Shown: positions 16,249 to 54,872 of the stretch, piece after piece | How the letters are laid out: each line of letters opens with the position of its first letter | How positions within the stretch are numbered: position 1 is the first letter of the stretch | Origin: an uncultured marine group III euryarchaeote | GTDB lineage: Archaea > Thermoplasmatota > Poseidoniia > MGIII > CG-Epi1 | Length of the DNA: 64,000 bases | Direction: 5' to 3' | Assembly: GCA_902533295.1 (NCBI GenBank) | Contig: CACALG010000001.1 | Location: 19,048-83,047, forward strand | Position numbers and translations under genes: made by a program | Notes under the pieces: model-generated | The model's input: only the letters and a program-made list of their open reading frames with translations | Told to the model about the DNA's origin: nothing | Database searches by the model: none

Positions 16249-16986
16249 ATGACTGAACAATACCACATGAATTCCCATGAAGGCACATATACTAGGGAAT
16301 TTGAGGCTAAAGTAGAGGCTACATTCCCAGGCATCATCGAACTAGATAAGACTGCATTCTATCCATTGGGAGGGGGCCAACCCTCAGATATTGGAACAAT
16401 AACTTGGAATGAAGGAGATGCAAATGTTACTGATGTGAGGAAAAAAAATCGAATTAGGCACATTGTAGAAGGAGATTTACCAGAAGTTGGAGATTCCATA
16501 AAAGGTAATCTTGACTGGTCACGAAGATATTCACATATGAGAATGCATACTTCTCAACATTTAGTTTCTGCTGTAGTGAATGAAATATATGGTTCAGATA
16601 CCGTAGGAAATCAGATAGGAAATGAGAAGTCTAGAATAGATTTTAAGCCTTTAAAAATAAACCAAACTGAGCTTAATGAAGTAGAGGACAAAGTCAATGA
16701 TTACATATCTAAAGACTTGAAAGTTACTATATCTGAGGAATTACGGTCCAATTTAGAAAATAATCCAGATATCCGTTCAAGTATGTCTAGTGGTCTTTGG
16801 AAAATGTTACCGAAAAGTGTTACAGAATTAAGAGTAATAACCATAGGTGATATCGATGTTTGTCCATGCGCAGGCACTCATGTAAAAAGCTTAAAGGAAA
16901 TAGGTAATGTTTCTTTTATTAAAAGAGATAATAAGGGTTCTGAAAAATTAAGATTAACATATAATCTAGGCGATATCGACTCTTGA
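16249..16986 (+). CDS. alaX: AlaX-type Ala-tRNA editing protein (tRNA synthetase second additional domain)
   Basis: The zinc/editing motifs HTSQHLVS (HxxxH) and CPCAGTHV (CxxxH) sit at the spacing expected for free-standing AlaX. Confidence 0.8.
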   Translation: MTEQYHMNSHEGTYTREFEAKVEATFPGIIELDKTAFYPLGGGQPSDIGTITWNEGDANVTDVRKKNRIRHIVEGDLPEVGDSIKGNLDWSRRYSHMRMHTSQHLVSAVVNEIYGSDTVGNQIGNEKSRIDFKPLKINQTELNEVEDKVNDYISKDLKVTISEELRSNLENNPDIRSSMSSGLWKMLPKSVTELRVITIGDIDVCPCAGTHVKSLKEIGNVSFIKRDNKGSEKLRLTYNLGDIDS

Positions 16987-19900: not shown

Positions 19901-22128
19901 TGTGTATTATTCGTTAATATATTATTTGAAATTCTTCCTTCACTATTATTTGCAGTTATAGCTATTTCCGAAAAATTAATAATATTGTCTTCTAAGTCAA
20001 AATCTGCAAGAACGACAGTTATAGATTCTCTAAAATTCGTTATTATATTATCACTAACTTCGACTTCACCTTCCTGCGAAAAAATACCTACTGCAGCAAC
20101 TTTTTGTAAATAAAGAACATCACATCTATCATGTGTGCATAATCCGGTTACATTATTATTAACTATTTTACTATATGTCCTGTTACTAAGAATACCATAA
20201 TCATTTACATGCAATATATTATCTTCAATAAGTATAGGAAACGTACTATCCTCAAATCCTCCTACTTCGATACCCACTGCCGAACTTAATGTATTATTTT
20301 TAATTATAGTTTTTGGAATATAATATGCATAAATTCCTGATAATTGTGATTCAGGACTCATGTTTGTTTGAACTGTATTATTTGCAATATATCCTTCTTC
20401 AACATCTCTGAACATTATGCCAGCACCATCGATAGAATGAACAAGATTATTTGTTACATGTATATTATCAATTGTAAATGCTGAACCAAACTGAGTATAT
20501 GCAGATATTCCATTATATTTTATATTTTTGAGTGTGTTATTAGCGACAATACCATTTGATATGTCGCCAAAACCATTATCATATATCCAAATTCCTATAG
20601 ACGCATTATCAATATAATTATCCACTATAGTAAAATTTTTGTAGAAATTCCAAACCGTTATTGCTCTTGCTGATGTATTAGTAATATAATTTGAAATTAT
20701 ATGATTATCAGTTCCTACATCATTATATACATTTTCAAAATCAAGCGCTATTGGAAAGTCATTATCATTGATGGTATTATTTATTATATAATTTCCAGAA
20801 GGTGATATACCTCCTTCAGGCCAACCCCAAAGTCCTATAGCTTGCCATCCTATTTCAAAATTATTATTTCTTATAGTATTATTGTTCTGAAATGAATTAA
20901 TAAAAATAGCAATTGTGTAATTTTCAAAGTAATTATTTTCGATTAAATGACCTCCACCATAATATTCATCTGTATCAAAATCCCAGAACCAGAAAATCAT
21001 ACAACTATGCCCCCAATAGGGTTGTTTAGACCCGCAATTTATGAATGTATTATTACTGTATTCATTTCTATTTCCTGCACGATCCATAAGATTGTGCCAA
21101 TATACGCCAGAAACATTGAATATGTTGCGGCTAATTATATTGTCATCTGTAGCTTGTAGAGACATATCATGTATTGTATTATTTAGAAATTGGTTATCAA
21201 TTATTGTATGATTACTGCCTTGAGTTATAGTAAGCGTACCTCTGCCTCCCTGTCCATTATCCTTGTAAATATAATCTCTAAAGATGTTACCACTAATTAG
21301 ATTATAATTCCCATAGGAAATAGTTACACCTAATGTACCGTTAATGAAAGTATTATTTTGTATTAAGGCGTTCTCTCCTGAGACAAACAAGTCATAGAAT
21401 ATGTAACTATTATAAATCGTGTTATTAATAAATCTAAAATTATCAGTATAAGCACTAATTATTCCAATCATATCAAATGTGGAATTAGTTATGTAAGATC
21501 CAGCTCCAGTAAATCTTAATGCCTTTACATACTCAAAATCAGAATTCTCAATAATTACCCTAGTATTAGGAATTCCTGAGCCTGGCTGATTATTTACTAA
21601 TCTGCCTACTTGAACAGTATAATCTAACCTCTCTGTGTAATTCCCTTTACCAATTATATTAGATTTAATAACGGAACGATCATTACTAGTTGTCGGATTC
21701 AAATCATAATCTGTAACAATTAGTACAGAATTCTCATTTAAATCAAGACAATTAGCAGTTATTTCACTATTCTTTTGAATAGAATCAAGTATTAATTCAG
21801 AATTAATTATGGTCAGTGTACTGTATAATGATATATTGTCACCATGTGAATCTTGTTCATGAAATACTGTAGAATTAATCCATCTGGTTTCTCCTCTAAT
21901 TTCAATGAAACCTTTTGATGATAGAGAAACGTTTTCAAGTTTCAAAGTCTTACCAAAATTAACGACAATATCTTTGACTGAGACGTCCTCATCCCAAACA
22001 TGCGTGTCTTGAGTGATAATCCAATCCTGACCCTCTTGGGGTGCATTTCCATTTGAACCTGCTGAAGCATTTCCAGTACTGATTACTATCGCAGTAATTG
22101 CGATTAAAAGAAATGCTGTTTTCTTCAT
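16966..22128 (-). CDS. Giant surface protein (1720 aa): signal peptide, Asn-rich right-handed beta-helix (PbH1-like) repeats, Ig/Fn3-like region, one TM helix, cytoplasmic roadblock-like domain plus a beta-rich C-terminal domain
   Basis: N-terminal AFLLIAITAIVISTGNASA. Hundreds of residues carry periodic NNT/NN.I/GI.. beta-helix signatures (e.g. IQNNTFINGTLGVTISYGNYNLISGNIF). The TM helix is ILPATIGISLLFLMFGGVLLY (about 17785-17847), followed by a 270-aa tail. Confidence 0.75.
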   Translation of the reverse strand: MKKTAFLLIAITAIVISTGNASAGSNGNAPQEGQDWIITQDTHVWDEDVSVKDIVVNFGKTLKLENVSLSSKGFIEIRGETRWINSTVFHEQDSHGDNISLYSTLTIINSELILDSIQKNSEITANCLDLNENSVLIVTDYDLNPTTSNDRSVIKSNIIGKGNYTERLDYTVQVGRLVNNQPGSGIPNTRVIIENSDFEYVKALRFTGAGSYITNSTFDMIGIISAYTDNFRFINNTIYNSYIFYDLFVSGENALIQNNTFINGTLGVTISYGNYNLISGNIFRDYIYKDNGQGGRGTLTITQGSNHTIIDNQFLNNTIHDMSLQATDDNIISRNIFNVSGVYWHNLMDRAGNRNEYSNNTFINCGSKQPYWGHSCMIFWFWDFDTDEYYGGGHLIENNYFENYTIAIFINSFQNNNTIRNNNFEIGWQAIGLWGWPEGGISPSGNYIINNTINDNDFPIALDFENVYNDVGTDNHIISNYITNTSARAITVWNFYKNFTIVDNYIDNASIGIWIYDNGFGDISNGIVANNTLKNIKYNGISAYTQFGSAFTIDNIHVTNNLVHSIDGAGIMFRDVEEGYIANNTVQTNMSPESQLSGIYAYYIPKTIIKNNTLSSAVGIEVGGFEDSTFPILIEDNILHVNDYGILSNRTYSKIVNNNVTGLCTHDRCDVLYLQKVAAVGIFSQEGEVEVSDNIITNFRESITVVLADFDLEDNIINFSEIAITANNSEGRISNNILTNNTQSVSSYRSDINILNNVFNDFEKAIYSFNSTISIDNNIFSEGDFCLDLIDSDSTLQNNDFNCRDTDYLIRYNLQINIADERGTGSREHGFDIENSFGSKLVDSQTDNYGFSDYYMINVISKAADQNEINYNPIRIIYYNNDIMVEIYKNLSYNHTLLALLDTTSPQSEIIPGTGLINSESIELQISLLNDDNDFKEYIIEYIVNDKFAQWEEYGTFTESIVLFTGEDGKEYRFRSLARDIYGNTENKNNYEYQVKIDTSIPSTELLNFEEDYYFIGNSQIDLSWKNSADDIAYNTLEVSYSNFTNANLDPNSVTWTALDSINIYGDTHYIYEFDELGHYAFKILASDYAGNSEDKEEYDIIMNYASKVDTISFSNVPQKWGYDYLEIFIDTDNLNLDYKIYIAIQTIEKGNDLLTWYLLPHDISDDKIKLQDLQDNTRYFLYAESRDLAGNLENPLDTTEYFSSNGQYDQSFNLKYIPAINDIHWFNVSVDNDLDGIYEKALVRGMNKNKLLVDEYYLDIINKTIQFGGTSNGGFVPTEDITGNNNIKIDYSGVHLTFEVFTEDPQKATNVAISHTNATELVLGFVIPEDAAICKVQMVADELPASDSGWFTQEIIGVGMETSCKQGYYEWIHKNPSPDRDYFYRITIEDEFGHISNSNNETVSMEEVVKLYSSSGTETDQFGMKEILPATIGISLLFLMFGGVLLYRSRKEELDENVSIIESKPIAKYKVEELYLIYKDGRLLRNVSAVEVKTDTDIMSGMLTAINDFVQDSFQTEGDLGSIDYGNNKIILQRGEHSYLAAVIYGEIDNMFKGKLINAVRAIETINPTLANWNGDAESVKQVKIYLNPIIDETIASTREMVDNYFTEKEIVITSSYEKLGTNITLNVNLSNYSSETISSCKISPEFNSSILGLVGIDPDVYYSFSDNSFIVGDISSYNEVQFKLKMQQKSNAATSVEIKMMYEQKDREGLTNSRVDIA

Positions 22129-42238: not shown

Positions 42239-44332
42239 CTAATTTTCTTTATCATCACTCATTTTTTTTCTGAGCTGTTCAACAGAAACCGAAATTTTCT
42301 TTTCAGGAATGGATTCTGCGCCTTGGGTAAATTCTTCAACCTCTTCAACTTCCTCATTAAAATCACCAACGTCTTCAATATCTGATGAATCATCATCAAA
42401 AACTTCAACCGCTGACTCAGCGACATCCTCTTCTCCAATATTTTTAGAAATAGCATAATCTCCATCACTACCTTGTCCCACAGCAATATCCCCGCTTTCG
42501 ATATCCTCTGCCAATTGCATGCGCTTTTCTGAACTAGCATCATCCACTATTTCCTCTAACAATTCCTCTGGTGAAAGCTCCTCCTCCACTTCTGGAAATT
42601 CCTCATCTTCTGTCTCAATAAGTTCATCTAAATCTAATTCAACTTCCTCATTATACAAGAATTCTGGCATTTCAGGAGCTACCGCACCTGGTGTAGCTAT
42701 TGCATCATAAAATTCAAAAGCCGTCCTCTCAACCTCTTCCACAAATTCTTCTAAATCTTCTTCCCCTATTCTAGAATAGATAGTAGCCATTCTATCTGCA
42801 ATGAATGCAAAGTAATTCGGTGCAACTTCAAATGCTTTTTCAGTCCATGTAAATGGAATCCATGCCATAACTTGCTTATTTTTAGGATCTACTGTTATTT
42901 TTAATTGAGGACCAGGATAAATTATACCACCGCAGGAAACATCATAATTATTCATATATGCTAAAACTTTGTACACATCTTCTTGTTTTGGTGTTTCAGT
43001 TAAATTATATTTGGCCTCAAAATAGAAATTGACTTTCTTATAATTCATGAAAATTTCAGGCCTTCCTGAACCCTGAACAGGATTGGTCTTAGTGTCTGAT
43101 TCAGCAAAAAGTGAACCCATTATTGAATCGCTCCAGCCTTGCCTTACTTGTTCTGGTGCATCATATTTCAATACTACATCTTTATTTTTAGATCTAAACT
43201 CACGAAGTGATTTAGCATGTGCACTTAATTTTAATCCTGATGCCATCTCACAGAGAATCCATAGAGCATAAATATCTGTCATCTTTTGTGTCTGTACAAG
43301 TACTGTTTCTTCATAATATGATTGGTACTCATCTAAAAACTCTCTCCACAAAGGGGGCAATTCTCTGTAAGAACGATTTCTACTCCAAGTTTTAGCTTCG
43401 ATAAGTGCTTCTCTATTAATTAAACGCTGCTCTTTACGAGTAGCCTTAGCAGTAGGTATTAATTCTGCTAATTTCCCATCACCTAAGACCTGTTTATGGA
43501 ATTTACATGCCATATCTAACTTATCCAATTGCTCCTTAACTGAATCATTAGGGGGCTGATATTCTTTGCCATAAATTGCAGACCAAGCTTTCTTTTCCCT
43601 TTCTCTTCTATCCATTTCATCTCTAAAAAAGATAGCTTCAATGAAAACTTCCATATGGAATTTTACAAGAAGGATGTTAGTGGGTGTACTCCATCTCCTC
43701 TTTCGGATATCTGTTACATGAGCAGTAGCATATTCTGTACCTTTTTGAGCACGAGCAAGAGCCGTTTTTTGCCACCTTACTGCACCCCTTATCTGGGATT
43801 TCATAGTCTTTCTTTCAACTTCTACTTTGTAAGTGTAAGCTCCTTTTCGGATATCATTTGTAACTTTCAACAATTTTCCAGAAAATTCTAATAATTGTTC
43901 AATATTAAGTAATATTTTCTCCTCTTCAATTGATGATGTCCCACCAGGATACATGTCTTCGGGCGGATCATCGGCTCCAGAATTCTTAACCAAATCAGGA
44001 ATATGAACATCTCGTAATTCTTTGAAGCTCTCATAATCTAACATCTTAGGAGCTATCACAACTTCTAGCTTGTTTGAAACCGAACTTCCATCTTTACTGT
44101 GCAAACTTATAGTGTTAGTTCCAATATAGTCTGGCACTACAAACTGTAGAGAATGTGTTGTATTTGATCTAACTGGAGGTAATGAATCAACTTTAGCACT
44201 ACCTACTCTGATATGCACATCTTCTAATGCCTTGAAAGCATTAACATTCAACATAACTGATTCACCCTCAGTCAAATTCTCAGAATGACCCTCTGGTAAT
44301 CTGAGATCTATAGTTGCATCTGGTAAACTCAT
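42239..44332 (-). CDS. McrC-like PD-(D/E)xK nuclease subunit (DUF2357/DUF524-like) with a ~175-aa acidic C-terminal tail
   Basis: RPE(426)-x12-E(439)AK(441)Y is encoded at 43007-43065 and followed by EDVYKVLAYMNNYD. The gene sits 1 nt downstream of the McrB-like gene, in the canonical B-then-C order. Confidence 0.7.
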   Translation of the reverse strand: MSLPDATIDLRLPEGHSENLTEGESVMLNVNAFKALEDVHIRVGSAKVDSLPPVRSNTTHSLQFVVPDYIGTNTISLHSKDGSSVSNKLEVVIAPKMLDYESFKELRDVHIPDLVKNSGADDPPEDMYPGGTSSIEEEKILLNIEQLLEFSGKLLKVTNDIRKGAYTYKVEVERKTMKSQIRGAVRWQKTALARAQKGTEYATAHVTDIRKRRWSTPTNILLVKFHMEVFIEAIFFRDEMDRREREKKAWSAIYGKEYQPPNDSVKEQLDKLDMACKFHKQVLGDGKLAELIPTAKATRKEQRLINREALIEAKTWSRNRSYRELPPLWREFLDEYQSYYEETVLVQTQKMTDIYALWILCEMASGLKLSAHAKSLREFRSKNKDVVLKYDAPEQVRQGWSDSIMGSLFAESDTKTNPVQGSGRPEIFMNYKKVNFYFEAKYNLTETPKQEDVYKVLAYMNNYDVSCGGIIYPGPQLKITVDPKNKQVMAWIPFTWTEKAFEVAPNYFAFIADRMATIYSRIGEEDLEEFVEEVERTAFEFYDAIATPGAVAPEMPEFLYNEEVELDLDELIETEDEEFPEVEEELSPEELLEEIVDDASSEKRMQLAEDIESGDIAVGQGSDGDYAISKNIGEEDVAESAVEVFDDDSSDIEDVGDFNEEVEEVEEFTQGAESIPEKKISVSVEQLRKKMSDDKEN

Positions 44333-44333
44333 A

Positions 44334-47243
44334 TCAACCGAATACGCTTAAACCTGGTGAATCAACCATTTTCTCTAAGGTATTGCTTATGCCGTGGTCT
44401 TGACCAAGAACTTCTTGAGCTTTTAGCATTAAACATTTTAGCTCATTTCTTTCCAATCCTTCCAATGCAGGCATTATATTGGATTTAATTACATCCTCTA
44501 ATGCTCTATCTAAATCATATTGCCCTCGAGAATTAAAGACAGTCAACATTGAATCTATAATTACTGCAGGACCAATCTTTCTATAAGTTCTAACACCTCT
44601 TGCAATTTCATCATCTCTAGATTGAGGTAACTCTTCTTCCTCCAAGAAATTCATAAATTTATTGAATGCTTTGAACATTGTCCCATCATCATCATAAAAG
44701 TCAAACATTTCTTTGGCATACCAATCCTCCTCTTCACTGTCCTCAGGCCTATCAGGTGCAATTCCCAACTTATTCAGTTTATTGAACACAAATATAGGCA
44801 TACGTCTGTACTCATCATCTCTATCAGGAAGACCAATTTCAACGAAAGCAAATCTTCTCATTAAAGCGTGACCCACATTGAAAAGAGTATTCTTATCTTG
44901 AGTATTCATAGTTCCAATTATTCTGAATTCTGGTGGCATCATAAACGGAGCCCCGCCAGTCTCTTTTGCTGTAAGAAGTGCTTGCTTGTCCCTGTACTCA
45001 AACACCGTAAATAATTTACCAAAAGCTTCATCGATATTTGCTCTATTAAACTCATCGATTACTAAATAATGAGGTTTGCCATCCTCTTGCATTGTTTTTT
45101 CACAACTCTTTGCAGCATCTGCAACATAACCATCTTTGAAAAAATAACCTCCTGAATCATCTGGTGAGATACCACCAATAACTTCGAAATTAGACCATTC
45201 TGCATTTGCAGTTACAATGGTGTAATTAGGAATAGGACTGCCGTCTTTTCCCTCTTTGACTCCACATATTTGACTCAGCAAAAGATTAGCTAATGCTGTT
45301 TTACCAGTACCTGGATCTCCATACAACATTATGTTTCTACCAGATTTAAGGTGTGTTACTGTCTGATTAATAGTATCTTCAGTCGTTGAATAATATTTTG
45401 ATAATTCTTCATAGTCAACATTGTAATCGACTTTCATTGCTTTTCGAATCTTTGGAGATTCAGCTAATTCTTCTTTCAAATCCTTTTCTAAATCATCTAA
45501 GTGAGAAAGATCAGCTCCATAATTTTCATCCTCTGTTGGCTTGATGTCTATTGTTGCTTCAGGAAATTCTGAAAGAAGCCTATCCATTGCATCTTCTAAA
45601 CTAATTTCTTTAGGTGTTGATGATGATGGAGTTTCGTCAGATTTTGGCCCATCTTCTGCCTCAAAAGAAGAATCGAAGGGATCTGAGGAAGGGGGACTAG
45701 ATAATTGCATTTCCATCATTTTATCTCTGAATTTCTCTGCACCAAATTGCCAACCATACCATATAGCACCTCCAGAAACTATGAGTGGAATTAGAAACAT
45801 AGCCCATTCTTCACTCGATTCAGGAGATGAAATATCTGAACCTGAAAGTAAAGCAGGAGCAATCATTGTTGCGAATAAAGTGCCTATTCCTGCTACAAAT
45901 AATCCAAAATAAGCAAACCCTTCCATGCTTTCTTCGGATTTCCTTTTCCGGTAAAATAAGAATACACCCAAAAATGTAATAACCATAAACAAAACAGTAA
46001 GAATCCAGTCTCCCTGTTCAAAATAAAAATTAGCCCCATTACGTAATAAATTCCATAACAATACAATGTACTGGAATCCAAGACCAAACAATATGAAGAA
46101 GAAATATTTTGCTTCTTCCATATCTTTCAAACGAATTGTTTGAAGAATATAGGCTGCAATACCTATCAAAAGAGCTAAAACACCAAGCATTAAAACTAGC
46201 ATTTCACCCGCTTGAAGATTAAGCATCACTGTTGCAGTTCCCATTGGTGGGTCTGCGGATGCACAAGCAGATTGAAGATCTGGGATTGTACTATCGTATG
46301 ATCCAACTGCGTCACATGAAGCCCATGGTCCACGCACCCAATTATGGTGTATAGATCCAAATACTAATGAACCGGCTCCCACAAAGGAATAAATTGTACT
46401 CAGTGGAGCCTCTCCAATGTCTTTTCCAGTTACTGCATACAAAAATACGATATAAGATACAATAATTATTATTAGAGAAGACGTCGCTCCTAGAGATGAA
46501 TAAAATCCATCTAGTGCACCTTTTGGATATGTCTCATTAATGAATGACTCACCTTCTGTAAGCTTTTCATCATTTGCGCTAGAATATCCACCGCCTACAT
46601 AAACATAAATAATAAGCATCACAAAAACACACAGAATTAATGGAGCCATGATATTACTATCATTAATCCGTCTTGCTTGTATCATAATTAATAGAGCAAG
46701 GAGCGTAAGCAAACCAAAAACAGACTGAAATTGATGAGTATCTACTTTGAAATCGGATGTATCAAAATTATCTCCTTCACCGACACGACCCCCCGGTCCA
46801 TTATTCAAAACCAACGGACATCCATCTTTATCTCCACGAACATCTATATCCGACCAACCTGGACACACAAGTGGGTTATTATCATCAGTCCAACCAAGTA
46901 AAGTCAACTGCGCTTTTTCTTCATCAGTTAACTCTTGTTCTATCTCGCTATTTGACTCTGGAGCCTCATCATTGTAATGTGGGATGTCTCCTGTTGTATA
47001 ATACAAAATCAAACCTAAGAGGGCAACAGCAATCAAAAATTGTAAAGCTGGCAAGTAAAAACTAGGTTTAGTTTTGATTAAAGGTGGTTTAGAAGTTGCA
47101 GCAGGCTTACCTTCAGATTTAGAAACTGGTGTCTCCACTTGAGAAGGACCTGAATCCTTAGCTCCAGACAGATTTACACCGCAAATATTACAGAATGGTG
47201 CATTATCTTCAACATCTACAGCACAGACTGGGCACTTTTTCAT
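44334..47243 (-). CDS. McrB-type AAA+ GTPase fused to an N-terminal zinc ribbon and a ~10-TM membrane domain (969 aa)
   Basis: Zinc ribbon CPVC-x13-CNIC (about 47178-47234). About ten hydrophobic helices span residues ~62-500 (about 45744-47060). The AAA+ module lies at about 44829-45371: GDPGTGKT, YLVIDEFNRA, IIGTMNTQDKN (NxxD), ALMRRFAFVEI. Confidence 0.75.
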   Translation of the reverse strand: MKKCPVCAVDVEDNAPFCNICGVNLSGAKDSGPSQVETPVSKSEGKPAATSKPPLIKTKPSFYLPALQFLIAVALLGLILYYTTGDIPHYNDEAPESNSEIEQELTDEEKAQLTLLGWTDDNNPLVCPGWSDIDVRGDKDGCPLVLNNGPGGRVGEGDNFDTSDFKVDTHQFQSVFGLLTLLALLIMIQARRINDSNIMAPLILCVFVMLIIYVYVGGGYSSANDEKLTEGESFINETYPKGALDGFYSSLGATSSLIIIIVSYIVFLYAVTGKDIGEAPLSTIYSFVGAGSLVFGSIHHNWVRGPWASCDAVGSYDSTIPDLQSACASADPPMGTATVMLNLQAGEMLVLMLGVLALLIGIAAYILQTIRLKDMEEAKYFFFILFGLGFQYIVLLWNLLRNGANFYFEQGDWILTVLFMVITFLGVFLFYRKRKSEESMEGFAYFGLFVAGIGTLFATMIAPALLSGSDISSPESSEEWAMFLIPLIVSGGAIWYGWQFGAEKFRDKMMEMQLSSPPSSDPFDSSFEAEDGPKSDETPSSSTPKEISLEDAMDRLLSEFPEATIDIKPTEDENYGADLSHLDDLEKDLKEELAESPKIRKAMKVDYNVDYEELSKYYSTTEDTINQTVTHLKSGRNIMLYGDPGTGKTALANLLLSQICGVKEGKDGSPIPNYTIVTANAEWSNFEVIGGISPDDSGGYFFKDGYVADAAKSCEKTMQEDGKPHYLVIDEFNRANIDEAFGKLFTVFEYRDKQALLTAKETGGAPFMMPPEFRIIGTMNTQDKNTLFNVGHALMRRFAFVEIGLPDRDDEYRRMPIFVFNKLNKLGIAPDRPEDSEEEDWYAKEMFDFYDDDGTMFKAFNKFMNFLEEEELPQSRDDEIARGVRTYRKIGPAVIIDSMLTVFNSRGQYDLDRALEDVIKSNIMPALEGLERNELKCLMLKAQEVLGQDHGISNTLEKMVDSPGLSVFG

Positions 47244-49472: not shown

Positions 49473-50205
49473 ATGGCATTACTAGAAGTTAAAGAGCTAA
49501 AAAGAGGCTTTGGATCCAAGACCTTTGGCACTCGAATTGAGGTTCTTAAGGGCGTTAATTTAGAAATAAAAAAGGGTGAACTAGTTGCGTTAATGGGACC
49601 GTCTGGATGTGGAAAATCTACCTTATTGAATATAATTGGAGGATTGCTAAAAGGAGATTCCGGAAAAATAAGTATTACTTCTCAAGAAAATAATTATAAT
49701 TATGGAACTAAGAATCCTAATCGTGTTGTAGATGTAAGAAGAAATGGTGTAGGATGGATATTTCAAGATTTTCACTTAATCGAACATTTAACTGCTATAG
49801 ACAACGTTGCATTATCACTTGAAATTTCAGGATTAACGGAGAGAGAAGCTGAGGAAAAAGCTAGATTAGCACTTACTAAAGTTGGTCTCAGGGATAGGAT
49901 AGACTTTGGTGTAGAGCAACTTTCAGGAGGTCAACGTCAACGAGTTGCTGTTGCAAGAGCTATTGCTGGTTCTAGACCGCTACTATTAGCAGACGAGCCA
50001 ACGGGAAATCTAGATATTGAGAGCGGAAATGATGTCATAAAATTGTTTAAGATGCTTACAAAATCTGAAAAAACCAATCTCAGTACTAATGGTTACACAT
50101 GATCCTAATCTAGCCAGTCAAGCCGATCGTATGTTATTGTTAAAAGACGGACTTGTGGCTGCGAGTGATATAAAATCTGCATGGGGAATAGGAGGAAAGA
50201 AATGA
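49473..50205 (+). pseudogene. MacB/LolD-type ABC transporter ATPase interrupted by a +1 frameshift in an A6 run
   Basis: Walker A GPSGCGKST, signature LSGGQRQRVAVARA and Walker B LLLADEPTGNLD lie in frame 0, which stops at 50100-50102. The H-loop and C-terminus (VLMVTHDPNLASQADRMLLLKDGLV) continue in the +1 frame to TGA at 50203-50205. The shift lies at the A6 run 50068-50073. Confidence 0.7.
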
Positions 50206-51734
50206 AGAAAAGAATAATAAAATGGAAAAATAAATTCCGAGATCTTCCTGATAATTTAAGAATAGCTGGCCTTAGTTCATGGCGTGACAAGGAAAGAGGA
50301 TTAGCTGTATTCGCAGGAGTTTTCCTCGCAAGTTTAGTAATTACTTTAGTATTAGTATACGGAGTTGGGCTTTCACAAGCTTTCTTAGAAGAATCATTAG
50401 AACAAACAGTTTTTGATTCAAAAATAGAATTTAAAAATGCTCCAGCTCAGGGTTCTACTGGATGGACAAACAACACTACTATTTTACAAAATATGTGTGA
50501 TGAAGTTACACTAAAGGAAGAATTTAGTGATTGCACAGTAATATTGGGTAAAAGTGGGATACATAGTGAGTTGAGCTTTTCTAATGATGCTGCATTTTAC
50601 GCATCTCCACTCTTTTTGAAGGAAATCGAATCTTCTGATAATGACAGAGACTGGGATCAAGAGGATTTATGGGATTATGAATACACGACAGGACCTCCTG
50701 TTGTAAACATAAGAGCTATTTCATTTTTGGGCCCTGAAGCTTTTGATGGTGAAATCTCAGAACGCTTATCTAAAAAAACATAATTTATGAAATGGGCGAA
50801 TGGAAAACTCATGAAGAGGTCCATGCTGAAAGAGGCATATACATTCCATTAGATATTGCATCTACTACTGGTGCGGAAGTAGGAGATAAAATAGAACATC
50901 TAACATTTACTTACACTTCTGAAAGAAGCCTTCCAGGAGGGATGTCTGAAGAAGATTGTGCTGGTGAGATAATTGAAGGTGAAGAATTCAGGCTTATGTA
51001 TTGCCAAATTCCCCTAACTCTTGATAATGTCACAATTCTAGGAATATATGAACCATGGCCACAAGGTAATCCAGTTCTTGCTGCTAATCCTATATACACA
51101 ACATGGACTATACTTGATGAAAAGCAGCAAACTACTCTGATTGATAATGACCATGTATACCTTGGTGTAACTGTAGATCGCACTCTATTACCAACATCAT
51201 CTATCTCAGCTGCAGAAGATTGGTTAGAAATTGTTGCAAATGATATGCAAAAAACAAACTTACGATGATGGAAATGTAAAGATATTCTATGTAGATATAA
51301 TAAGTAGCAGTATTTTGTGGCTTGAATTTTTCCTTGGATTCGTTCAAGTATTCGATTATATTTTAATGATACCTGTGGTTATTCTTTCCCTATACTTACT
51401 AATTTATGGACTAGAACTTTCATTAGAACAAAGAAGAAGAGAAATAAGTATTCATAGAGCCATTGGTGCAACAGCAGAAAAACTTAAGGGAATGGTTCTC
51501 TTTGAACTGTTTATAATCTCTACAGTTGCTTGGTTAGGTGGATATTTGCTTGCCCTTATTGCAGTTCCTTTTGTCCTATCTATTGTTGGTTTTATGGAAT
51601 TTGAGGCATTGGAAATCGATGTTAATCCAAGTCTGAGCTTTGGCGCTACATTCTTCACCATTCTTACCACCCTGGGATTAGCTTTAATTTTCGGTAATTC
51701 TCGCACGAAAAGCTTCCTAGAGATGGAAAATTGA
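50202..51734 (+). pseudogene. N-terminal half of an FtsX/MacB-type permease (TM1, extracytoplasmic domain, first FtsX bundle) split into three ORFs by frameshifts at poly-A runs
   Basis: ATG 50202 follows ggaggaaag and overlaps the ATPase stop (ATGA). The ORFs 50202-50783, 50792-51268 and 51231-51734 are consecutive pieces of one extracytoplasmic domain plus the RRREISIHRAIGAT FtsX motif. The junctions fall at A7 (50772-50778) and A6 (51249-51254). The middle ORF has no TM helix or signal peptide. Confidence 0.65.
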
Positions 51735-51780
51735 TGAGGGGGTCAGAAAGACAAAGGAGACAGGTAAACCAAGAGTTTGG

Positions 51781-53778
51781 TTGCATTGGACTATGTTTGG
51801 CATAGGAGCCATAGGTGCAATAGATACTTGGCAAGAATTGAATACAACCGGTGAAGGAATAATAACCAACTGGTTTGTAGGTGGCTTAATTAATATTTTT
51901 GGACCTTTCTTATTATGGATAGGTGGGGCTTTGTTGCTTTCAAGATTAGGTGCAGCCGGACCTTCTATAATGCTTAAATTCTTCAGAAAAACCCCATTGC
52001 TTTCTGATGTAAAGAGAGGTCTTGAATCGACTGGAACAAGTGAATCTACAGGTAGACTATCAACAATTATGCTATTGACATTATCAATAGTAACTCTCGC
52101 AGCCGTACAAGGATATACAGGTTCTCTTGTCGATGAAAGAACAGCGGATTTAGATATTGGTAGCGACATCAAAGTTTATGCTGTTGAACCAATGACTTCA
52201 ATTGAAGTAGAACAAGCAATCACTAATATCAGCTCTAAAGACCTTACTGTAAATGCAGTAAATGTACCGATTATTCCCTTGATATCTGAGGATGGGACGG
52301 ACGTTAATGCATATGTACTAATGAATGAAAGTACCGAGATACTCAAATGGTTTCCTCAAGCCGTTCCTGGAAAAGATATTTCTGAAGCAATGATTGCATA
52401 CAAAGATGGAGGATTCACAGCAGGCGAAGATATAGCATTTACATTGGATTTATGGGGTTCTGGCCGTTACGGTGATTCAGAAGACATATTACTAGATAAA
52501 AGCAATAAGAACTCAGAAAATTTGAATTTAACATGGGAAGAAACTATTGTTACCTTTACAGGTGAGGAAAATGAAGAACTAGATCCAATGATGGCGATAG
52601 TGTTGTATACTGGGTTCATGGAAAAGAATTGGTCAAATATTGACCTATCTAACCAGGATATAAGCAGCCGGAATTTTACACAAACTGACTTTTCGAATAC
52701 AAATTTATCTGGTGCCAATTTAGCTAATTCAGATTTATCAGAATCGATATTCTTCAACGTTGATCTAAGGGGTGCTAATCTAACTGGTGCAAATCTAAAC
52801 AATACTGTATTTGTGATACAACCACAAAACATTGTCGGTGCAAACTTTACAGGTGCAAATCTGAGAGGGGCCTTTGAATATACTGGATTTGTTAATTTGT
52901 CAAACGAGGAAATAAGTGGTGCTATTTGCCCTGATGGAACTATACAAACTAATGATAATAATTGTTCCACTGGATTTAGTACAATACCTCCCCCCTTACT
53001 GGCACCTTTCTTTATTCCTGCAACAGTTGAATTTGAAGTGATTCCACATGAAACAACTATACGATACATTGGAGTTCATGAATTCATTCCTGGTGTTGCT
53101 ACAAATGACATGAATAATTATTTAGTAATAAATGAGCTAGCATATAGAGAATTACGAGGAAATCAATTCGTTGATAGTGAAACTTCAACTACTTGGATTG
53201 TAGATATAGATGGGCTCAATAATGATGAATTACAAGTATTGGCCCTGCTAATAGCTGCAGATTCTCGTTTTGAAAGTGCCGATGATTGGGAAACATCACA
53301 TGAAAATGTTGAGAGAAATGGAGGAATTATATTCGGAACACAGGGTCTTTTCACACTACAATATCTTGTTGCAAGTGTTGCTGCAATAGCCTCATCATTT
53401 GTTTTCTTATCATTAGTTTTAAATCAAAAGAAGAAAGAATTGGCTATTTTACAAGCAATAGGAGCTAGTCCAAATCAGATTATCAGACTCGTTTTATTCG
53501 AGATTCTATCTATAGTATTTGTTTCTATGATTTTAGGAGTTATACTCGGTATTGGTTTGGCTTTATCCTTTAACGGACTGTTTGATATCTTTGGATTCTT
53601 ATTCCAGTTGTTTTCTGGAACTGGAGAATCATCAGTAATTACAAGAGTACTACAGTGGCCTTGGTGGGTTATAATCAAGGTCACATTAGGTGTACTATCT
53701 GTGGTTGTCTTGGCTTTAATTATGACCACCAGAAGGGCATTACGTGCCGATTTAGCCGTTGTTTTAAAGGGAGAATAA
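51781..53778 (+). CDS. C-terminal half of the double-FtsX permease: three TM helices, a second extracytoplasmic domain containing pentapeptide repeats, and a second FtsX bundle
   Basis: KKELAILQAIGASPNQIIRLVLFE FtsX motif with C-terminal TM helices, and pentapeptide repeats at 52627-52875. This frame is open from 51721 and overlaps the end of the preceding ORF, so it may be one gene with 50202-51734 (possible +1 shift at 51727-51730). Confidence 0.7.
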   Translation: MHWTMFGIGAIGAIDTWQELNTTGEGIITNWFVGGLINIFGPFLLWIGGALLLSRLGAAGPSIMLKFFRKTPLLSDVKRGLESTGTSESTGRLSTIMLLTLSIVTLAAVQGYTGSLVDERTADLDIGSDIKVYAVEPMTSIEVEQAITNISSKDLTVNAVNVPIIPLISEDGTDVNAYVLMNESTEILKWFPQAVPGKDISEAMIAYKDGGFTAGEDIAFTLDLWGSGRYGDSEDILLDKSNKNSENLNLTWEETIVTFTGEENEELDPMMAIVLYTGFMEKNWSNIDLSNQDISSRNFTQTDFSNTNLSGANLANSDLSESIFFNVDLRGANLTGANLNNTVFVIQPQNIVGANFTGANLRGAFEYTGFVNLSNEEISGAICPDGTIQTNDNNCSTGFSTIPPPLLAPFFIPATVEFEVIPHETTIRYIGVHEFIPGVATNDMNNYLVINELAYRELRGNQFVDSETSTTWIVDIDGLNNDELQVLALLIAADSRFESADDWETSHENVERNGGIIFGTQGLFTLQYLVASVAAIASSFVFLSLVLNQKKKELAILQAIGASPNQIIRLVLFEILSIVFVSMILGVILGIGLALSFNGLFDIFGFLFQLFSGTGESSVITRVLQWPWWVIIKVTLGVLSVVVLALIMTTRRALRADLAVVLKGE

Positions 53779-53780
53779 AT

Positions 53781-54872
53781 ATGAGTGAAGAACTATTTGA
53801 ACATACAACGGGACAAGGAAAAGAAAATGAAGAATCAAAGCAGCAAATGGAAGCTGCTCAATTCTCAGAGAATTTATATGACAACAAAATAGACAAAAAT
53901 GCTATCTTACAAGCTATAGCATTATATCATGTTTATCAATCTACTGCTGAAGATGGAAATGTTGTTGCTTTGAGAGGATTAAATGTAACTGTTAAGAAAG
54001 GAGAAGCTGTAGCCATTGTTGGTCCTTCTGGTTCTGGTAAATCAACCTTATTGAAATGTCTTGGAGTTTTAATGAAGCCCTCAGCAGGAGGGGTTATCCT
54101 AAACGGAACGCCAACTACACGTAAGACTGGACTTGAACTAGTAAAAATGAGACAAGAAACAGTTTCATTTATTTTCCAAGAAGGGAATCTATTGCCTGAT
54201 CTAAATGCCCTCGATAACGTAGCTCAACCACTACGCCACAGAGATGTAAGCCCATATGAAGCAAAAGAAAAAGCACGTGAATTATTAATTGAATTAGGCT
54301 TAGAAGAAAGAATATATGGATTTCCTGAAACACTTTCAGGTGGTGAACAGCAAAGGGTCGCAATTGCACGGGCGTTAGTAACAAATCCAAAACTGATTCT
54401 AGCCGATGAACCTACGGGGGCACTAGATCCTATAACCAGTAGAGAAGTACTAGAATTATTTGGAAAATTACACAAGGAAAGAGGTGTAGCATTCTTAATT
54501 GTAACACATAGTGCAGAAGTAGCAGCTTTTTGTGATCGTAGCTTAGAATTACGTGATGGCAGATTTGTCGCCGAACATGGAACAAACTTAGAAATAGAAG
54601 ATTTAGAAGAATCTCGTGAACTAATAATTGATGATTTAGGAACATTATCATTTCCTCCTGAAGTATTGATGAGAATGGGTGGTTCTGGACGATTTGAAGT
54701 TGAGGAAGCTGCTGATGGAAAAATTACCTTGGTTGCTGCTGAGAGAAAAGAATCTATGATTAAAGGAAAGCAAAAACTGGCTGAGAAATGTCCTGCTTGT
54801 GAGTACAAATACAAGGACAATAGCCAAATGTGTCCTGAATGTGGTTCAAGCCGACCAATGATTAAATCATAA
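53781..54872 (+). CDS. ABC transporter ATPase with a C-terminal extension ending in a zinc ribbon
   Basis: GPSGSGKST, LSGGEQQRVAIARAL, LILADEPTGALD and VTHS, followed by a ~95-aa tail with CPAC-x12-CPEC (54789-54845). ATG 53781 lies 2 nt after the permease stop; the ORF track starts at 53655. Confidence 0.85.
   Translation: MSEELFEHTTGQGKENEESKQQMEAAQFSENLYDNKIDKNAILQAIALYHVYQSTAEDGNVVALRGLNVTVKKGEAVAIVGPSGSGKSTLLKCLGVLMKPSAGGVILNGTPTTRKTGLELVKMRQETVSFIFQEGNLLPDLNALDNVAQPLRHRDVSPYEAKEKARELLIELGLEERIYGFPETLSGGEQQRVAIARALVTNPKLILADEPTGALDPITSREVLELFGKLHKERGVAFLIVTHSAEVAAFCDRSLELRDGRFVAEHGTNLEIEDLEESRELIIDDLGTLSFPPEVLMRMGGSGRFEVEEAADGKITLVAAERKESMIKGKQKLAEKCPACEYKYKDNSQMCPECGSSRPMIKS

What the first reader, a model, noticed from the sequence alone, without database searches (positions are those of the whole stretch)
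52627..52875. Pentapeptide-repeat block inside the extracytoplasmic domain of an FtsX/MacB-type permease
Seen in sequence: about 83 residues read NWSNIDLSNQDISSRNFTQTDFSNTNLSGANLANSDLSESIFFNVDLRGANLTGANLNNTVFVIQPQNIVGANFTGANLRGAF, which is a run of A(D/N)LXX-type pentapeptides. The block lies between TM7 and the second FtsX bundle, in the loop that is extracytoplasmic in MacB/LolCE-type permeases. Established knowledge: pentapeptide repeats form right-handed quadrilateral beta-helices. The best-characterised examples are cytoplasmic DNA mimics such as Qnr and MfpA. Inference: a beta-helix inserted in a mechanotransmission-type permease ectodomain is unusual. It could be a substrate- or partner-docking rod. 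I am not aware of a described MacB-family member with this insertion.
Basis: partly seen in the sequence, partly recalled or inferred. Interest (0 to 1): 0.55.

Follow-up and report, generated by a model that had tools for sequence, protein, structure and literature searches.

The report
Pentapeptide beta-helix on archaeal ABC permease
A marine planktonic archaeon (Marine Group III) carries a MacB/YbbP-type ABC transporter whose outer-facing domain has a small rigid pentapeptide-repeat beta-helix spliced into one hairpin. The module is real, conserved and widespread in these archaea, but no paper found here describes it and its function is unknown.

Summary
Window 52627-52875 (+) encodes the quoted 83 residues, and Pfam Pentapeptide scores 48 bits against a cutoff of 20.

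The repeats are the core of a 157-residue module (52564-53034). It has an N-cap helix, about 4-5 beta-helix coils, a conserved Cys-Cys cap and a PPPL return linker. The module sits at the tip of one beta-hairpin of the second ectodomain of a 10-TM, double-FtsX permease with YbbP-like topology, flanked by two ATPase genes. Charge distribution, sequons, cysteines and fold matches all place it outside the cell.

It is not a one-off. All 80 best species-representative genomes of Poseidoniia (MGIII and MGIIa) have the insert in intact ~1200-aa genes. A sister clade, one member of which NCBI labels Thalassarchaeum, has a tight hairpin at that site, and one lineage has a different insert there. The module is under purifying selection (dN/dS 0.10-0.29).

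Public databases auto-label some copies, but no paper found describes the fusion. The closest analogue is the luminal pentapeptide domain of eukaryotic SV2 transporters.

In this window the gene and the upstream ATPase are broken by four extra-A frameshifts. These are an artefact or very recent.

A docking or spacer role is inference only.

The parts
49473..50205 (+). ATPase 1 (MacB/LolD/FtsE-type ABC nucleotide-binding subunit). It is interrupted by one extra A in an A-run near 50068.
   Evidence: PF00005 scores 121.6 bits, and the best NCBIfam hits are DevA, FtsE, MacB and LolD, all below their cutoffs. The C-terminal 34 residues continue in another frame from 50101. The intact relatives L008, L009 and L010 lack the extra A.
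50181..53778 (+). Full permease gene. It encodes ~1197 aa after removing 4 extra A bases, with 10 TM helices and two FtsX repeats. In the window it is split into ORFs 50181-50783, 50792-51268, 51231-51734 and 51781-53778.
   Evidence: tblastn with the full-length ortholog P0045 shows collinear segments in frames 3, 2, 3 and 1. The repaired translation is one open frame of 1197 aa. Orthologs in 80 genomes are single ~1200-aa ORFs.
50772..50773 (+). Frameshift 1. The window has A7 where intact relatives have A5 (two extra A).
   Evidence: blastn gaps against L008, L009 and L010.
51249..51249 (+). Frameshift 2. One extra A (A6 against A5).
51727..51727 (+). Frameshift 3. One extra A (A4 against A3).
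50301..50369 (+). TM1. It is preceded by a K/R-rich cytoplasmic N-terminus.
   Evidence: Hydropathy peak of 2.82. There are 14 K+R in residues 1-40.
50370..51293 (+). Ectodomain 1, about 307 aa. It has no pentapeptide repeats.
   Evidence: Predicted outside loop with 3 sequons and 4 Cys. No Pfam match.
51360..51695 (+). FtsX domain 1 (TM2-4).
   Evidence: PF02687 scores 47.4 bits in ORF 51231-51734.
51784..51954 (+). Linker helices TM5 and TM6.
   Evidence: AF2 helices 2-21 and 31-58. This is the same plan as YbbP TM5/6 (PMC12646458).
52039..52152 (+). TM7 plus its stalk extension.
   Evidence: AF2 helix 87-124 and hydropathy.
52153..53334 (+). Ectodomain 2 (MacB/LolC-like Porter/Sabre fold), which carries the insert.
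52519..52560 (+). Hairpin strand A (NLNLTWEETIVTFT), immediately before the insert.
   Evidence: AF2 strand 247-260. It aligns with ...FTWxExxFNF of insert-less orthologs.
52564..53034 (+). The inserted module (157 aa). It consists of an acidic linker, an N-cap helix, the pentapeptide beta-helix, a Cys-Cys cap and a PPPL return linker.
   Evidence: It is absent as one clean gap from 21 insert-less orthologs. It is 152-169 aa long in 80 genomes. dN/dS is 0.13-0.25 against three close relatives.
52585..52617 (+). N-cap helix of the module.
   Evidence: AF2 helix 269-279. The pattern Y..LM..DWS is conserved.
52627..52875 (+). The 12 canonical repeats lie at 52639-52818, and repeats continue to about 52923.
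52927..52965 (+). Conserved cysteine pair (C383...C395, motif CPDG-x7/8-C) capping the helix. A disulfide is probable.
   Evidence: Both Cys are 100% conserved in 81 sequences. Disulfide-stabilised C-caps are described for the lumenal proteins Rfr32 and TL15 (PMC8145042). The disulfide itself is inferred.
52987..52998 (+). PPPL proline-rich return linker.
   Evidence: Conserved at 0.70-0.93.
53023..53076 (+). Hairpin strand B (TVEFEVIPHETTIRYIGV), immediately after the insert.
   Evidence: AF2 strand 415-432. It aligns with SSMTLETTPHNTTLRYIG of insert-less orthologs.
53365..53748 (+). FtsX domain 2 (TM8-10).
   Evidence: PF02687 scores 52.2 bits. AF2 helices 521-560, 564-612 and 628-664.
53781..54872 (+). 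ATPase 2 (LolD/MacB-type). It has an N-terminal extension and a C-terminal zinc-ribbon tail.
   Evidence: PF00005 scores 119.5 bits. LolD TIGR02211 scores 210 bits, below its cutoff of 307.75. DZR PF12773 has E = 0.002. The ATG at 53781 follows the permease stop codon. The same gene order is seen in L001-L007.

Best explanation
What it is (shown):
- A ~157-residue pentapeptide-repeat module is spliced into the tip of one beta-hairpin of the second extracellular domain of a 10-TM, double-FtsX (MacB/LolCDE/YbbP-fold, type VII) ABC permease.
- The source is a Marine Group III archaeon (class Poseidoniia).
- The permease gene is flanked by two different ATPase genes.
- The module has an N-cap helix, about 4-5 coils of right-handed quadrilateral beta-helix, a cap with two invariant cysteines, and a proline-rich return linker.
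- It faces the outside of the cell.
- It is a conserved feature of this permease in MGIII and in the Poseidoniaceae/Poseidonia-labelled (MGIIa) genomes. It is absent from a sister clade, one member of which is labelled Thalassarchaeum (MGIIb by my knowledge of the taxonomy). It is under purifying selection.

How it most likely works (inferred):
- As in other type VII ABC systems, ATP binding and hydrolysis by the cytoplasmic ATPases should move the ectodomains (mechanotransmission).
- The rigid, probably glycosylated and disulfide-capped beta-helix would then serve as a lineage-specific protein-protein docking or spacing surface. Through it the moving ectodomain would hold or act on an extracellular partner such as an enzyme, carrier or cell-surface layer.
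- This is analogous to TesA sitting on YbbP, EnvC on FtsX and LolA on LolC, and to the SV2 luminal pentapeptide domain, which is a protein-binding surface.
- The core transport cycle evidently does not need the module, since intact orthologs lack it.
For: Identity of the repeats:
- Exact translation.
- PF00805 at 48.1 bits against a cutoff of 20.2.
- 12 contiguous canonical repeats.
- AF2 pLDDT of 83-91 over the block.

Carrier protein:
- Two FtsX domains.
- Foldseek hits to LolE, LolC and BceB.
- 10-TM plan with large loops between TM1/2 and TM7/8, as in YbbP (PMC12646458).

Outside location:
- K+R counts are 14, 5, 7, 7, 4 and 4 in the predicted inside loops, against 0-1 in the short outside loops.
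- All 15 N-X-S/T sequons and all 6 Cys lie in predicted outside loops.
- The Cys pair in the cap is invariant.
- The nearest structural relatives are lumenal pentapeptide proteins whose C-caps are disulfide-stabilised.

Clean domain insertion:
- Insert-less orthologs close the hairpin as FNF-SSMTLE.
- P0125 has a different ~100-aa insert at the same site.

Conservation:
- 80 of 80 best species genomes have a 152-169-aa insert in intact ~1200-aa ORFs.
- dN/dS of the module is 0.13-0.25, and of the coils 0.10-0.29.

Precedent for partner docking on type VII ectodomains and for a pentapeptide helix as a binding surface on a transporter loop: PMC12646458, PMC8145042, PMC4885069 and PMC12053756.
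Against: - No partner is known. No secreted or surface protein gene is conserved next to the operon. Neighbours differ between MGIII (DUF309, cysteine desulfurase-like) and MGIIa (DUF3817, cupin).
- Intact orthologs lack the module, and another lineage carries an unrelated insert at the same site. The site may therefore simply tolerate decoration.
- The later part of the helix (repeats 13-19) is variable and has indels.
- I could not read model coordinates, so the direction in which the helix points relative to the membrane and to ectodomain 1 is unknown.
- Whole-model confidence is moderate (pLDDT 73.5, pTM 0.48).
- In this particular window the gene is frameshifted and may not be expressed as one protein.
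Confidence: 0.6

Rival explanations
1. Passive decoration or spacer. The beta-helix is a stable, glycan-bearing bulge tolerated at a permissive hairpin tip. It shields the ectodomain or sets its distance from the surface layer and has no specific binding partner.
For: - The site accepts no insert, a pentapeptide insert or an unrelated insert in different lineages.
- Eight of the ORF's 12 N-X-S/T sequons lie in the module.
- The later coils are variable with indels.
- No conserved neighbouring partner gene was seen.
Against: - The module has been kept in every one of the 80 best genomes, with dN/dS of 0.10-0.29.
- Several positions in the first coils that fall outside the inward-facing i and i-2 slots are invariant or nearly so (Q292, D293, R297, D303, S310). 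That is more conservation than a mere bulge would need.
- N-L-S/T sequons arise automatically from the repeat consensus, so they are weak evidence for glycan display.
Confidence: 0.25
2. Surface-exposed target or decoy in a virus-host arms race. The presence/absence pattern and the alternative inserts reflect selection by viruses or other agents that use the exposed ectodomain as a receptor, much as SV2's pentapeptide domain is exploited by botulinum toxin.
For: - Patchy distribution on a crude NJ tree of shared columns. The insert-bearing sequences form three separate groups, and one of them (P0009) is nested among insert-less ones.
- The later coils are variable with indels.
- SV2 is a precedent for a pentapeptide domain serving as a receptor.
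Against: - dN/dS is well below 1 in the coils (0.10-0.29).
- Insert length is very stable (153 aa in 41 of 81 sequences).
- No hypervariable patch was found.
- No viral evidence was sought.
Confidence: 0.08
3. The locus in this window is a dead gene. The pentapeptide block is a relic in a pseudogenised operon and does nothing here.
For: Four frameshifts fall within 1.66 kb (50068-51727). They break ATPase 1 and the N-terminal half of the permease. They are local, because other long ORFs and adjacent gene pairs in the window are intact.
Against: - All four are extra A bases in A-runs relative to three intact relatives. That is a typical homopolymer error signature.
- The frameshifted N-half shows dN/dS of 0.05-0.08 against those relatives, so there is no relaxed constraint.
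- The 2-kb C-terminal ORF and ATPase 2 carry no lesion.
- 80 of 80 related genomes have the gene intact.
- Even if this copy is dead, the family feature stands.
Confidence: 0.3
4. Cytoplasmic Qnr/MfpA-like DNA mimic fused to a membrane protein.
For: Weak sub-threshold NCBIfam matches to Qnr and MfpA models (31.7 bits against a cutoff of 240, and 18.7 against 360). These reflect only the shared repeat.
Against: - Topology places the segment outside the cell.
- An invariant Cys pair and sequons are present.
- It is embedded in a MacB-type ectodomain.
- It has only 4-5 coils and no sign of the dimeric ~8-10-coil DNA-like rod.
Confidence: 0.01

Closest known systems
E. coli YbbP (YbbAP-TesA type VII ABC transporter; PDB 9GE6-9GE8; PMC12646458)
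   Same: - A single polypeptide with 10 TM helices and two FtsX-fold repeats joined by TM5/6.
- Large Porter/Sabre-type ectodomains between TM1/2 and TM7/8.
- A coupling helix after TM2 and after TM8.
- The ectodomains are a docking site for an extracytoplasmic partner.
   Different: - Not an ortholog. The NCBIfam YbbP model scores 17.7 bits against a cutoff of 999.
- Archaeal, with no outer membrane or periplasm.
- Two different ATPase genes rather than one, and one of them has a zinc-ribbon tail.
- Ectodomain 2 carries a pentapeptide beta-helix.
- No TesA-like neighbour.
MacB / LolC-LolE / FtsX / BceB (type VII, mechanotransmission ABC permeases)
   Same: - FtsX Pfam domain.
- Stalk helices that raise an ectodomain.
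- MacB/LolD/FtsE-like ATPases are encoded alongside.
   Different: - Fused double permease.
- The Pfam MacB_PCD model does not match the ectodomain.
- None of the solved members listed carries a pentapeptide-repeat insertion.
- No adaptor, TolC, LolA or EnvC equivalents were identified.
SV2A/B/C synaptic vesicle glycoproteins (MFS-type transporters with luminal domain LD4)
   Same: - A ~4.5-coil pentapeptide beta-helix is inserted in the large extracytoplasmic (luminal) loop between TM7 and TM8 of a transporter.
- It is N-glycosylated and used as a protein-binding surface (PMC8145042, PMC4885069, PMC12053756).
   Different: - Unrelated transporter fold (12-TM MFS against type VII ABC).
- Eukaryotic.
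- Only 12% identity in the helix.
- Independent origin, so this is analogy and not membership.
Rfr32 (Cyanothece 51142, 2F3L/2G0Y) and TL15 (At2g44920, 3N90), lumenal pentapeptide repeat proteins
   Same: - Small 4-5-coil helices with an N-cap helix and a disulfide-stabilised C-cap.
- Extracytoplasmic compartment.
   Different: - Free-standing soluble proteins, not domains inserted in a membrane transporter.
- Their function is also unknown.
[quoted passage not shown]
   Same: - Pentapeptide repeats form part of an envelope or membrane protein outside the cytoplasm.
- The DotG repeats match the family profile (E = 1.8e-10).
- HglK combines four predicted TM helices with 36 repeats (PMC8145042).
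   Different: - Long repeat arrays at a terminus or centre of non-ABC proteins.
- Not hairpin-tip insertions in a MacB-type ectodomain.

Membership tests
Pentapeptide repeat proteins (Pfam PF00805; Rfr fold) | At least 8 contiguous pentapeptides of the A(D/N)LXX type | tested here: met
   There are 12 contiguous canonical repeats at ORF residues 287-346, with further repeats to about 381.
Pentapeptide repeat proteins (Pfam PF00805; Rfr fold) | Profile match above the curated threshold | tested here: met
   PF00805 scores 48.1 bits against a cutoff of 20.2, E = 8.4e-13. PF13599 (33 against 38) and PF13576 (23 against 27) are below their cutoffs.
Pentapeptide repeat proteins (Pfam PF00805; Rfr fold) | Right-handed quadrilateral beta-helix, four repeats per coil | tested here: met
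   [not shown]
Type VII ABC permeases (MacB/LolCE/FtsX fold) | FtsX-type transmembrane domain (PF02687) | tested here: met
   Two copies are present, scoring 47.4 and 52.2 bits against a cutoff of 25.5.
Type VII ABC permeases (MacB/LolCE/FtsX fold) | Large extracytoplasmic domain with Porter/Sabre fold between the first and second helix of each repeat | tested here: met
   [not shown]
Type VII ABC permeases (MacB/LolCE/FtsX fold) | Dedicated MacB/LolD/FtsE-type ATPase partner | tested here: met
   ATPase genes lie on both sides. The best NCBIfam matches are LolD, MacB, FtsE and DevA, all below equivalog cutoffs. The gene order is conserved in L001-L007.
Type VII ABC permeases (MacB/LolCE/FtsX fold) | Mechanotransmission, meaning ATP-driven ectodomain movement without transmembrane substrate passage | not testable with these tools
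   It is inferred from fold membership only.
YbbP family (NCBIfam NF041854) and ADOP duplicated permeases (TIGR03434) | Equivalog or subfamily profile score above the cutoff | tested here: not met
   YbbP scores 17.7 bits against 999, and ADOP scores 24-32 bits against 622. The architecture is the same, but this protein is not a member of either family.
YbbP-like architecture | 10 TM helices: two 4-TM FtsX repeats plus the TM5/6 linker, with ectodomains after TM1 and TM7 | tested here: met
   Hydropathy and charge analysis of the repaired 1197-aa protein, and AF2 helices in the C-terminal half. The comparison is with PMC12646458.
Qnr/MfpA DNA-mimic pentapeptide proteins | Soluble cytoplasmic protein, with a family profile score above the cutoff | tested here: not met
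   Qnr scores 31.7 bits against 240, and MfpA 18.7 against 360. The segment is predicted to be extracytoplasmic.
SV2-type luminal pentapeptide domain | Pentapeptide helix in the TM7-TM8 extracytoplasmic loop of an MFS transporter | tested here: not met
   [not shown]

The most novel reading that the evidence does not exclude
The pentapeptide beta-helix is the dedicated docking platform through which an ATP-driven mechanotransmission machine of the most abundant planktonic Euryarchaeota grips and actuates a specific extracellular partner, such as a surface-layer-associated hydrolase or a lipid or protein carrier. That would make it the first archaeal type VII ABC 'machine' with a defined coupling element. 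It would also be a case of convergence with the SV2 luminal domain of animals.
Probability: 0.15. Interest if true: 0.65.

Novelty: new variant of a known kind. Interest (0 to 1): 0.4.

Why it matters
Type VII ABC transporters do mechanical work outside the membrane. What each one does is largely set by what its ectodomain binds. Almost nothing is known about them in archaea.

This work defines a large, conserved family in Marine Group II/III archaea, which are among the most abundant heterotrophs in the surface ocean. In this family one ectodomain has acquired a rigid pentapeptide-repeat helix at a precise hairpin tip. Natural insert-less and alternative-insert variants exist as ready-made controls.

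That gives two things:
- A clean system for asking what an extracytoplasmic pentapeptide helix is for, which is still an open question for almost all pentapeptide repeat proteins.
- A parallel in a prokaryote to the SV2 luminal domain.

It does not overturn any concept. Both parts are known folds, and the fusion is already visible, unremarked, in automated annotations.

Tried and rejected
1. 'The insert-bearing genes are always disrupted.'
- All 48 insert-bearing hits of the first protein search started at internal positions.
- Six of the seven insert-bearing loci I fetched (the window plus L001, L002, L004-L007) had frameshifts or in-frame stops. The seventh, L006, had only an N gap.
- I considered recoding, phase variation and systematic pseudogenisation.
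- I rejected all three. All 80 species-representative genomes have intact single ~1200-aa ORFs, and full-length representatives P0121 and P0123 exist.
- The pattern was selection bias, caused by looking up truncated gene calls.

2. General sequencing-error explanation for the window's frameshifts. This is only partly tenable. The lesions are confined to 50068-51727, while other long ORFs and adjacent gene pairs are intact.

3. Internal duplication check. hhalign of the N-half against the C-half aligns only the FtsX helices (87% probability). I therefore could not say what occupies the equivalent hairpin of ectodomain 1.

4. Equivalence of the insertion hairpin to the LolC 'Hook' that binds LolA. 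It was not tested.

5. AFDB50 fold search, to survey UniProt for the same architecture. The library was unavailable.

6. Exact-sequence look-up of the window ORFs. They are not in the collection.

7. Literature. No paper pairs pentapeptide repeats with FtsX, MacB, Lol or mechanotransmission, or with Marine Group II/III, in any meaningful way.
Full report
**Observation**

- In register, ORF residues 287-346 (window 52639-52818) are twelve uninterrupted pentapeptides with L/F/I at the centre and mostly D/N before it.
- After a short bulge, further repeats continue to about residue 381.
- Pfam PF00805 (Pentapeptide) scores 48.1 bits against a gathering cutoff of 20.2, E = 8e-13.
- The block lies in ORF 51781-53778, which ends in an FtsX domain (PF02687, 52.2 bits).

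**The gene**

ORF 51781-53778 is only the C-terminal 665 residues of a longer permease.
- Upstream ORFs 50181-50783, 50792-51268 and 51231-51734 (the last with a second FtsX domain, 47.4 bits) are collinear pieces of the same protein in other frames.
- Three intact close relatives were compared (L008, L009, L010; 88-92% nucleotide identity).
- Against them the window has extra A bases in A-runs at 50772-3 (+2), 51249 (+1) and 51727 (+1).
- A fourth extra A at about 50068 breaks the upstream ATPase gene.
- Removing the three permease insertions restores one 1197-aa open frame.

The lesions are local.
- The 1735-, 1720-, 969- and 854-aa ORFs elsewhere in the window are intact.
- Adjacent ORF pairs that I checked are separate complete genes.
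- Only 7 of the window's 199 A-runs of five or more lie in the affected stretch.
- The frameshifted half shows dN/dS of 0.05-0.08 against the intact relatives, so there is no decay.

The frameshifts are therefore either a local assembly or homopolymer artefact or a very recent inactivation. I cannot tell which without reads.

**Architecture and topology**

The repaired protein has a K/R-rich N-terminus (14 K+R in 40 residues). The order of elements is:
- TM1
- a ~307-aa loop
- the first FtsX bundle (TM2-4)
- two linker helices (TM5, TM6)
- TM7
- a ~417-aa loop containing the repeats
- the second FtsX bundle (TM8-10)

Predicted inside loops hold 14, 5, 7, 7, 4 and 4 K+R, while the short outside loops hold 0-1. 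All 15 N-X-S/T sequons and all 6 cysteines are in predicted outside loops.

The AlphaFold2 model of the 665-aa ORF was built on a 70-sequence alignment (mean pLDDT 73.5, pTM 0.48). It gives the same helices.

This is the 10-TM plan reported for E. coli YbbP. There, large periplasmic domains lie between TM1/2 and TM7/8, TM5/6 form a linker, and coupling helices follow TM2 and TM8 (PMC12646458).

Fold searches agree.
- Foldseek hits LolE, LolC and BceB.

Two different MacB/LolD/FtsE-like ATPase genes flank the permease, at 49473-50205 and 53781-54872. The second has a zinc-ribbon tail. The order ATPase-permease-ATPase is conserved in related contigs.

**The insert as a module**

Aligning 48 insert-bearing and 21 insert-less homologs shows one clean gap.
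- Insert-less proteins close a hairpin as ...FTWxExxFNF-SSMTLETTPHNTTLRYIGTHEFIPG.
- The window protein has 157 residues (ORF 262-418; window 52564-53034) between the same two strands.
- Those strands are AF2 strands 247-260 and 415-432.

The module comprises:
- an acidic linker
- an N-cap helix (269-279)
- the beta-helix (pLDDT 83-91, the best-predicted part of the model)
- a cap with two invariant cysteines (CPDG-x7/8-C; C383 and C395)
- a conserved PPPL linker returning to the hairpin

The best structural matches are small lumenal pentapeptide proteins.
- The review PMC8145042 describes disulfide-stabilised C-caps for both.

With 4-5 coils the helix should be about 20-25 A long by standard pentapeptide geometry (my knowledge). 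That is a compact block rather than a long rod.

**Distribution**

A scan of one genome per species found 297 genomes with a relative.
- The 80 best all carry a 152-169-aa insert (153 aa in 41 of 81 sequences).
- All 80 encode intact ~1200-aa ORFs.
- The closest are Marine Group III MAGs (95% identity to 'A2.5-MGIII-7'; also 'marine group III euryarchaeote AH-321-L02' and 'CG-Epi1'). The window therefore comes from an MGIII archaeon.
- Most of the remaining loci are labelled Poseidoniaceae, Poseidonia or Poseidoniales. Poseidoniaceae is MGIIa by my knowledge.
- Insert-less orthologs form a separate clade. One member is labelled Thalassarchaeum, which is MGIIb by my knowledge.

On a crude NJ tree of the shared columns, the insert-bearing sequences form three groups around that clade, and one of them (P0009) is nested within it. 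This suggests an old insertion with loss, but it needs a proper phylogeny.

One representative (P0125) has an unrelated ~100-aa insert at the same site, and P0129 has a short hairpin.

Among the 150 best 50%-identity representatives, FtsX and pentapeptide repeats co-occur only in this family. More distant double-FtsX permeases lack the repeats.

The module is under purifying selection, with dN/dS of 0.13-0.25 for the module and 0.10-0.29 for the coils. The transmembrane core gives 0.01-0.04.

**An early false lead**

The first protein search listed only N-terminally truncated insert-bearing proteins. Six of the seven insert-bearing loci examined had frameshifts or stops, and the seventh had an assembly gap. 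This briefly suggested systematic disruption. The 80 intact genomes and the full-length representatives P0121 and P0123 show it was selection bias.

**Mechanism**

Shown:
- A folded, conserved, extracellular pentapeptide beta-helix sits on one hairpin of ectodomain 2 of a type VII ABC permease.

Inferred:
- By family analogy, ATP binding and hydrolysis move the ectodomains. Type VII systems use those domains to hold partners, for example TesA on YbbP, EnvC on FtsX and LolA on LolC (PMC12646458, for TesA; the others are listed in the same paper's introduction).
- A rigid helix at a hairpin tip is most plausibly a lineage-specific docking or spacing surface for an extracellular partner.

The nearest functional precedent is SV2A/B/C.
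- It is an MFS-type transporter whose luminal domain between TM7 and TM8 is a 4.5-coil, glycosylated pentapeptide helix used as a protein-binding surface.

Against a specific partner:
- No conserved neighbouring secreted gene was found.
- Intact insert-less orthologs exist.
- A different insert occupies the same site in another lineage.
- The later coils are variable.

A passive spacer or glycan-bearing decoration is therefore the main rival. A DNA-mimic role like Qnr or MfpA is excluded by topology.

**Comparison and novelty**

- The protein is a member of the FtsX/MacB fold class and shares the YbbP architecture.
- It is not a YbbP or ADOP family member, because the profiles score far below their cutoffs.
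- The insert is a bona fide pentapeptide repeat domain.
- Extracytoplasmic pentapeptide proteins are known (Rfr32, TL15, DotG, HglK, SV2).
- Full-text searches found no paper describing pentapeptide repeats in a MacB/FtsX-type permease or in MGII/III archaea.
- Public databases nevertheless hold many copies with automated labels such as 'pentapeptide repeat-containing protein', 'FtsX-like permease family protein' and 'ABC-type antimicrobial peptide transport system permease subunit'.

I rate it a new variant of a known kind. It is interesting as a natural system for the still-unknown role of extracytoplasmic pentapeptide helices and for archaeal type VII ABC machines, but it is not conceptually surprising.

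**Limits**

- I could not read model coordinates, so the orientation of the helix and the Cys-Cys distance are untested.
- The AFDB library was unavailable.
- A global PF02687 + PF00805 survey was not possible with these tools.
- Function rests on analogy.

Noticed in passing
window 50068, 50772-50773, 51249, 51727: Four extra-A insertions in A-runs, relative to three intact relatives, break ATPase 1 and the N-terminal half of the permease. They are confined to a 1.66-kb stretch, and the rest of the window looks intact. dN/dS of the broken part is 0.05-0.08, so this is a local artefact or a very recent inactivation.
   Followed up: yes
window 53781-54872: The second ATPase has an ~80-residue N-terminal extension and a ~100-residue C-terminal tail ending in a CxxC...CxxC zinc ribbon (Pfam DZR, E = 0.002). 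A weak zinc-ribbon hit is also on record for the ortholog in L007. A zinc-ribbon tail on a MacB-type nucleotide-binding subunit is unusual, and I did not pursue it.
   Followed up: partly
P0125 and P0129 (representatives); same hairpin as window 52560/53023: The hairpin tip that carries the pentapeptide module is an insertion hot spot. P0125 has an unrelated ~100-aa asparagine/sequon-rich insert there, plus a large extra insert in ectodomain 1. P0129 and the insert-less clade (one member labelled Thalassarchaeum) have only a short turn.
   Followed up: partly
L002 position 362; L004 about 3693; L001 about 8004; L005; L007: Several metagenome contigs carry single lesions in this gene.
- L002 has an in-frame TGA at a conserved Trp codon.
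- L004 has an in-frame stop.
- L001, L005 and L007 have frameshifts (L001 and L005 are contigs named '_pilon'; L007 is a JGI contig).
These were found because I looked up truncated gene calls, and 80 of 80 species-representative genomes are intact. Whether the two short-read stop codons are real strain variants was not examined.
   Followed up: partly
window 10990-16197 (-) and 16966-22128 (-): Two giant ORFs of 1735 and 1720 aa have domains typical of extracellular proteins. The first has a BNR/sialidase-like repeat plus CARDB. The second has right-handed beta-helix/NosD repeats plus a cohesin domain. They are probably large surface proteins or glycan-degrading enzymes. Neither contains pentapeptide repeats.
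   Followed up: no
L059/L060 (isolate SP272), L066/L068 (SP212), L039/L083 (S4_Bin_159): Three MAGs each contribute two insert-bearing loci on different contigs. These could be true paralogs or mixed strains in a bin. I did not resolve this.
   Followed up: no
proteins P0143-P0270: Outside the permease family, the best matches to the repeat block are very large proteins (1000-4980 aa) with up to 43 matched repeat stretches and 32-45% identity. Their organisms are unknown (the library carries no names). They could include the donor lineage of the module.
   Followed up: no
window 42239-47243 (-): A 968-aa protein with a C-terminal AAA_5 (dynein-related/MoxR-type) ATPase domain lies next to a 696-aa ORF with no Pfam match. 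The pair is uncharacterised and unrelated to the finding.
   Followed up: no
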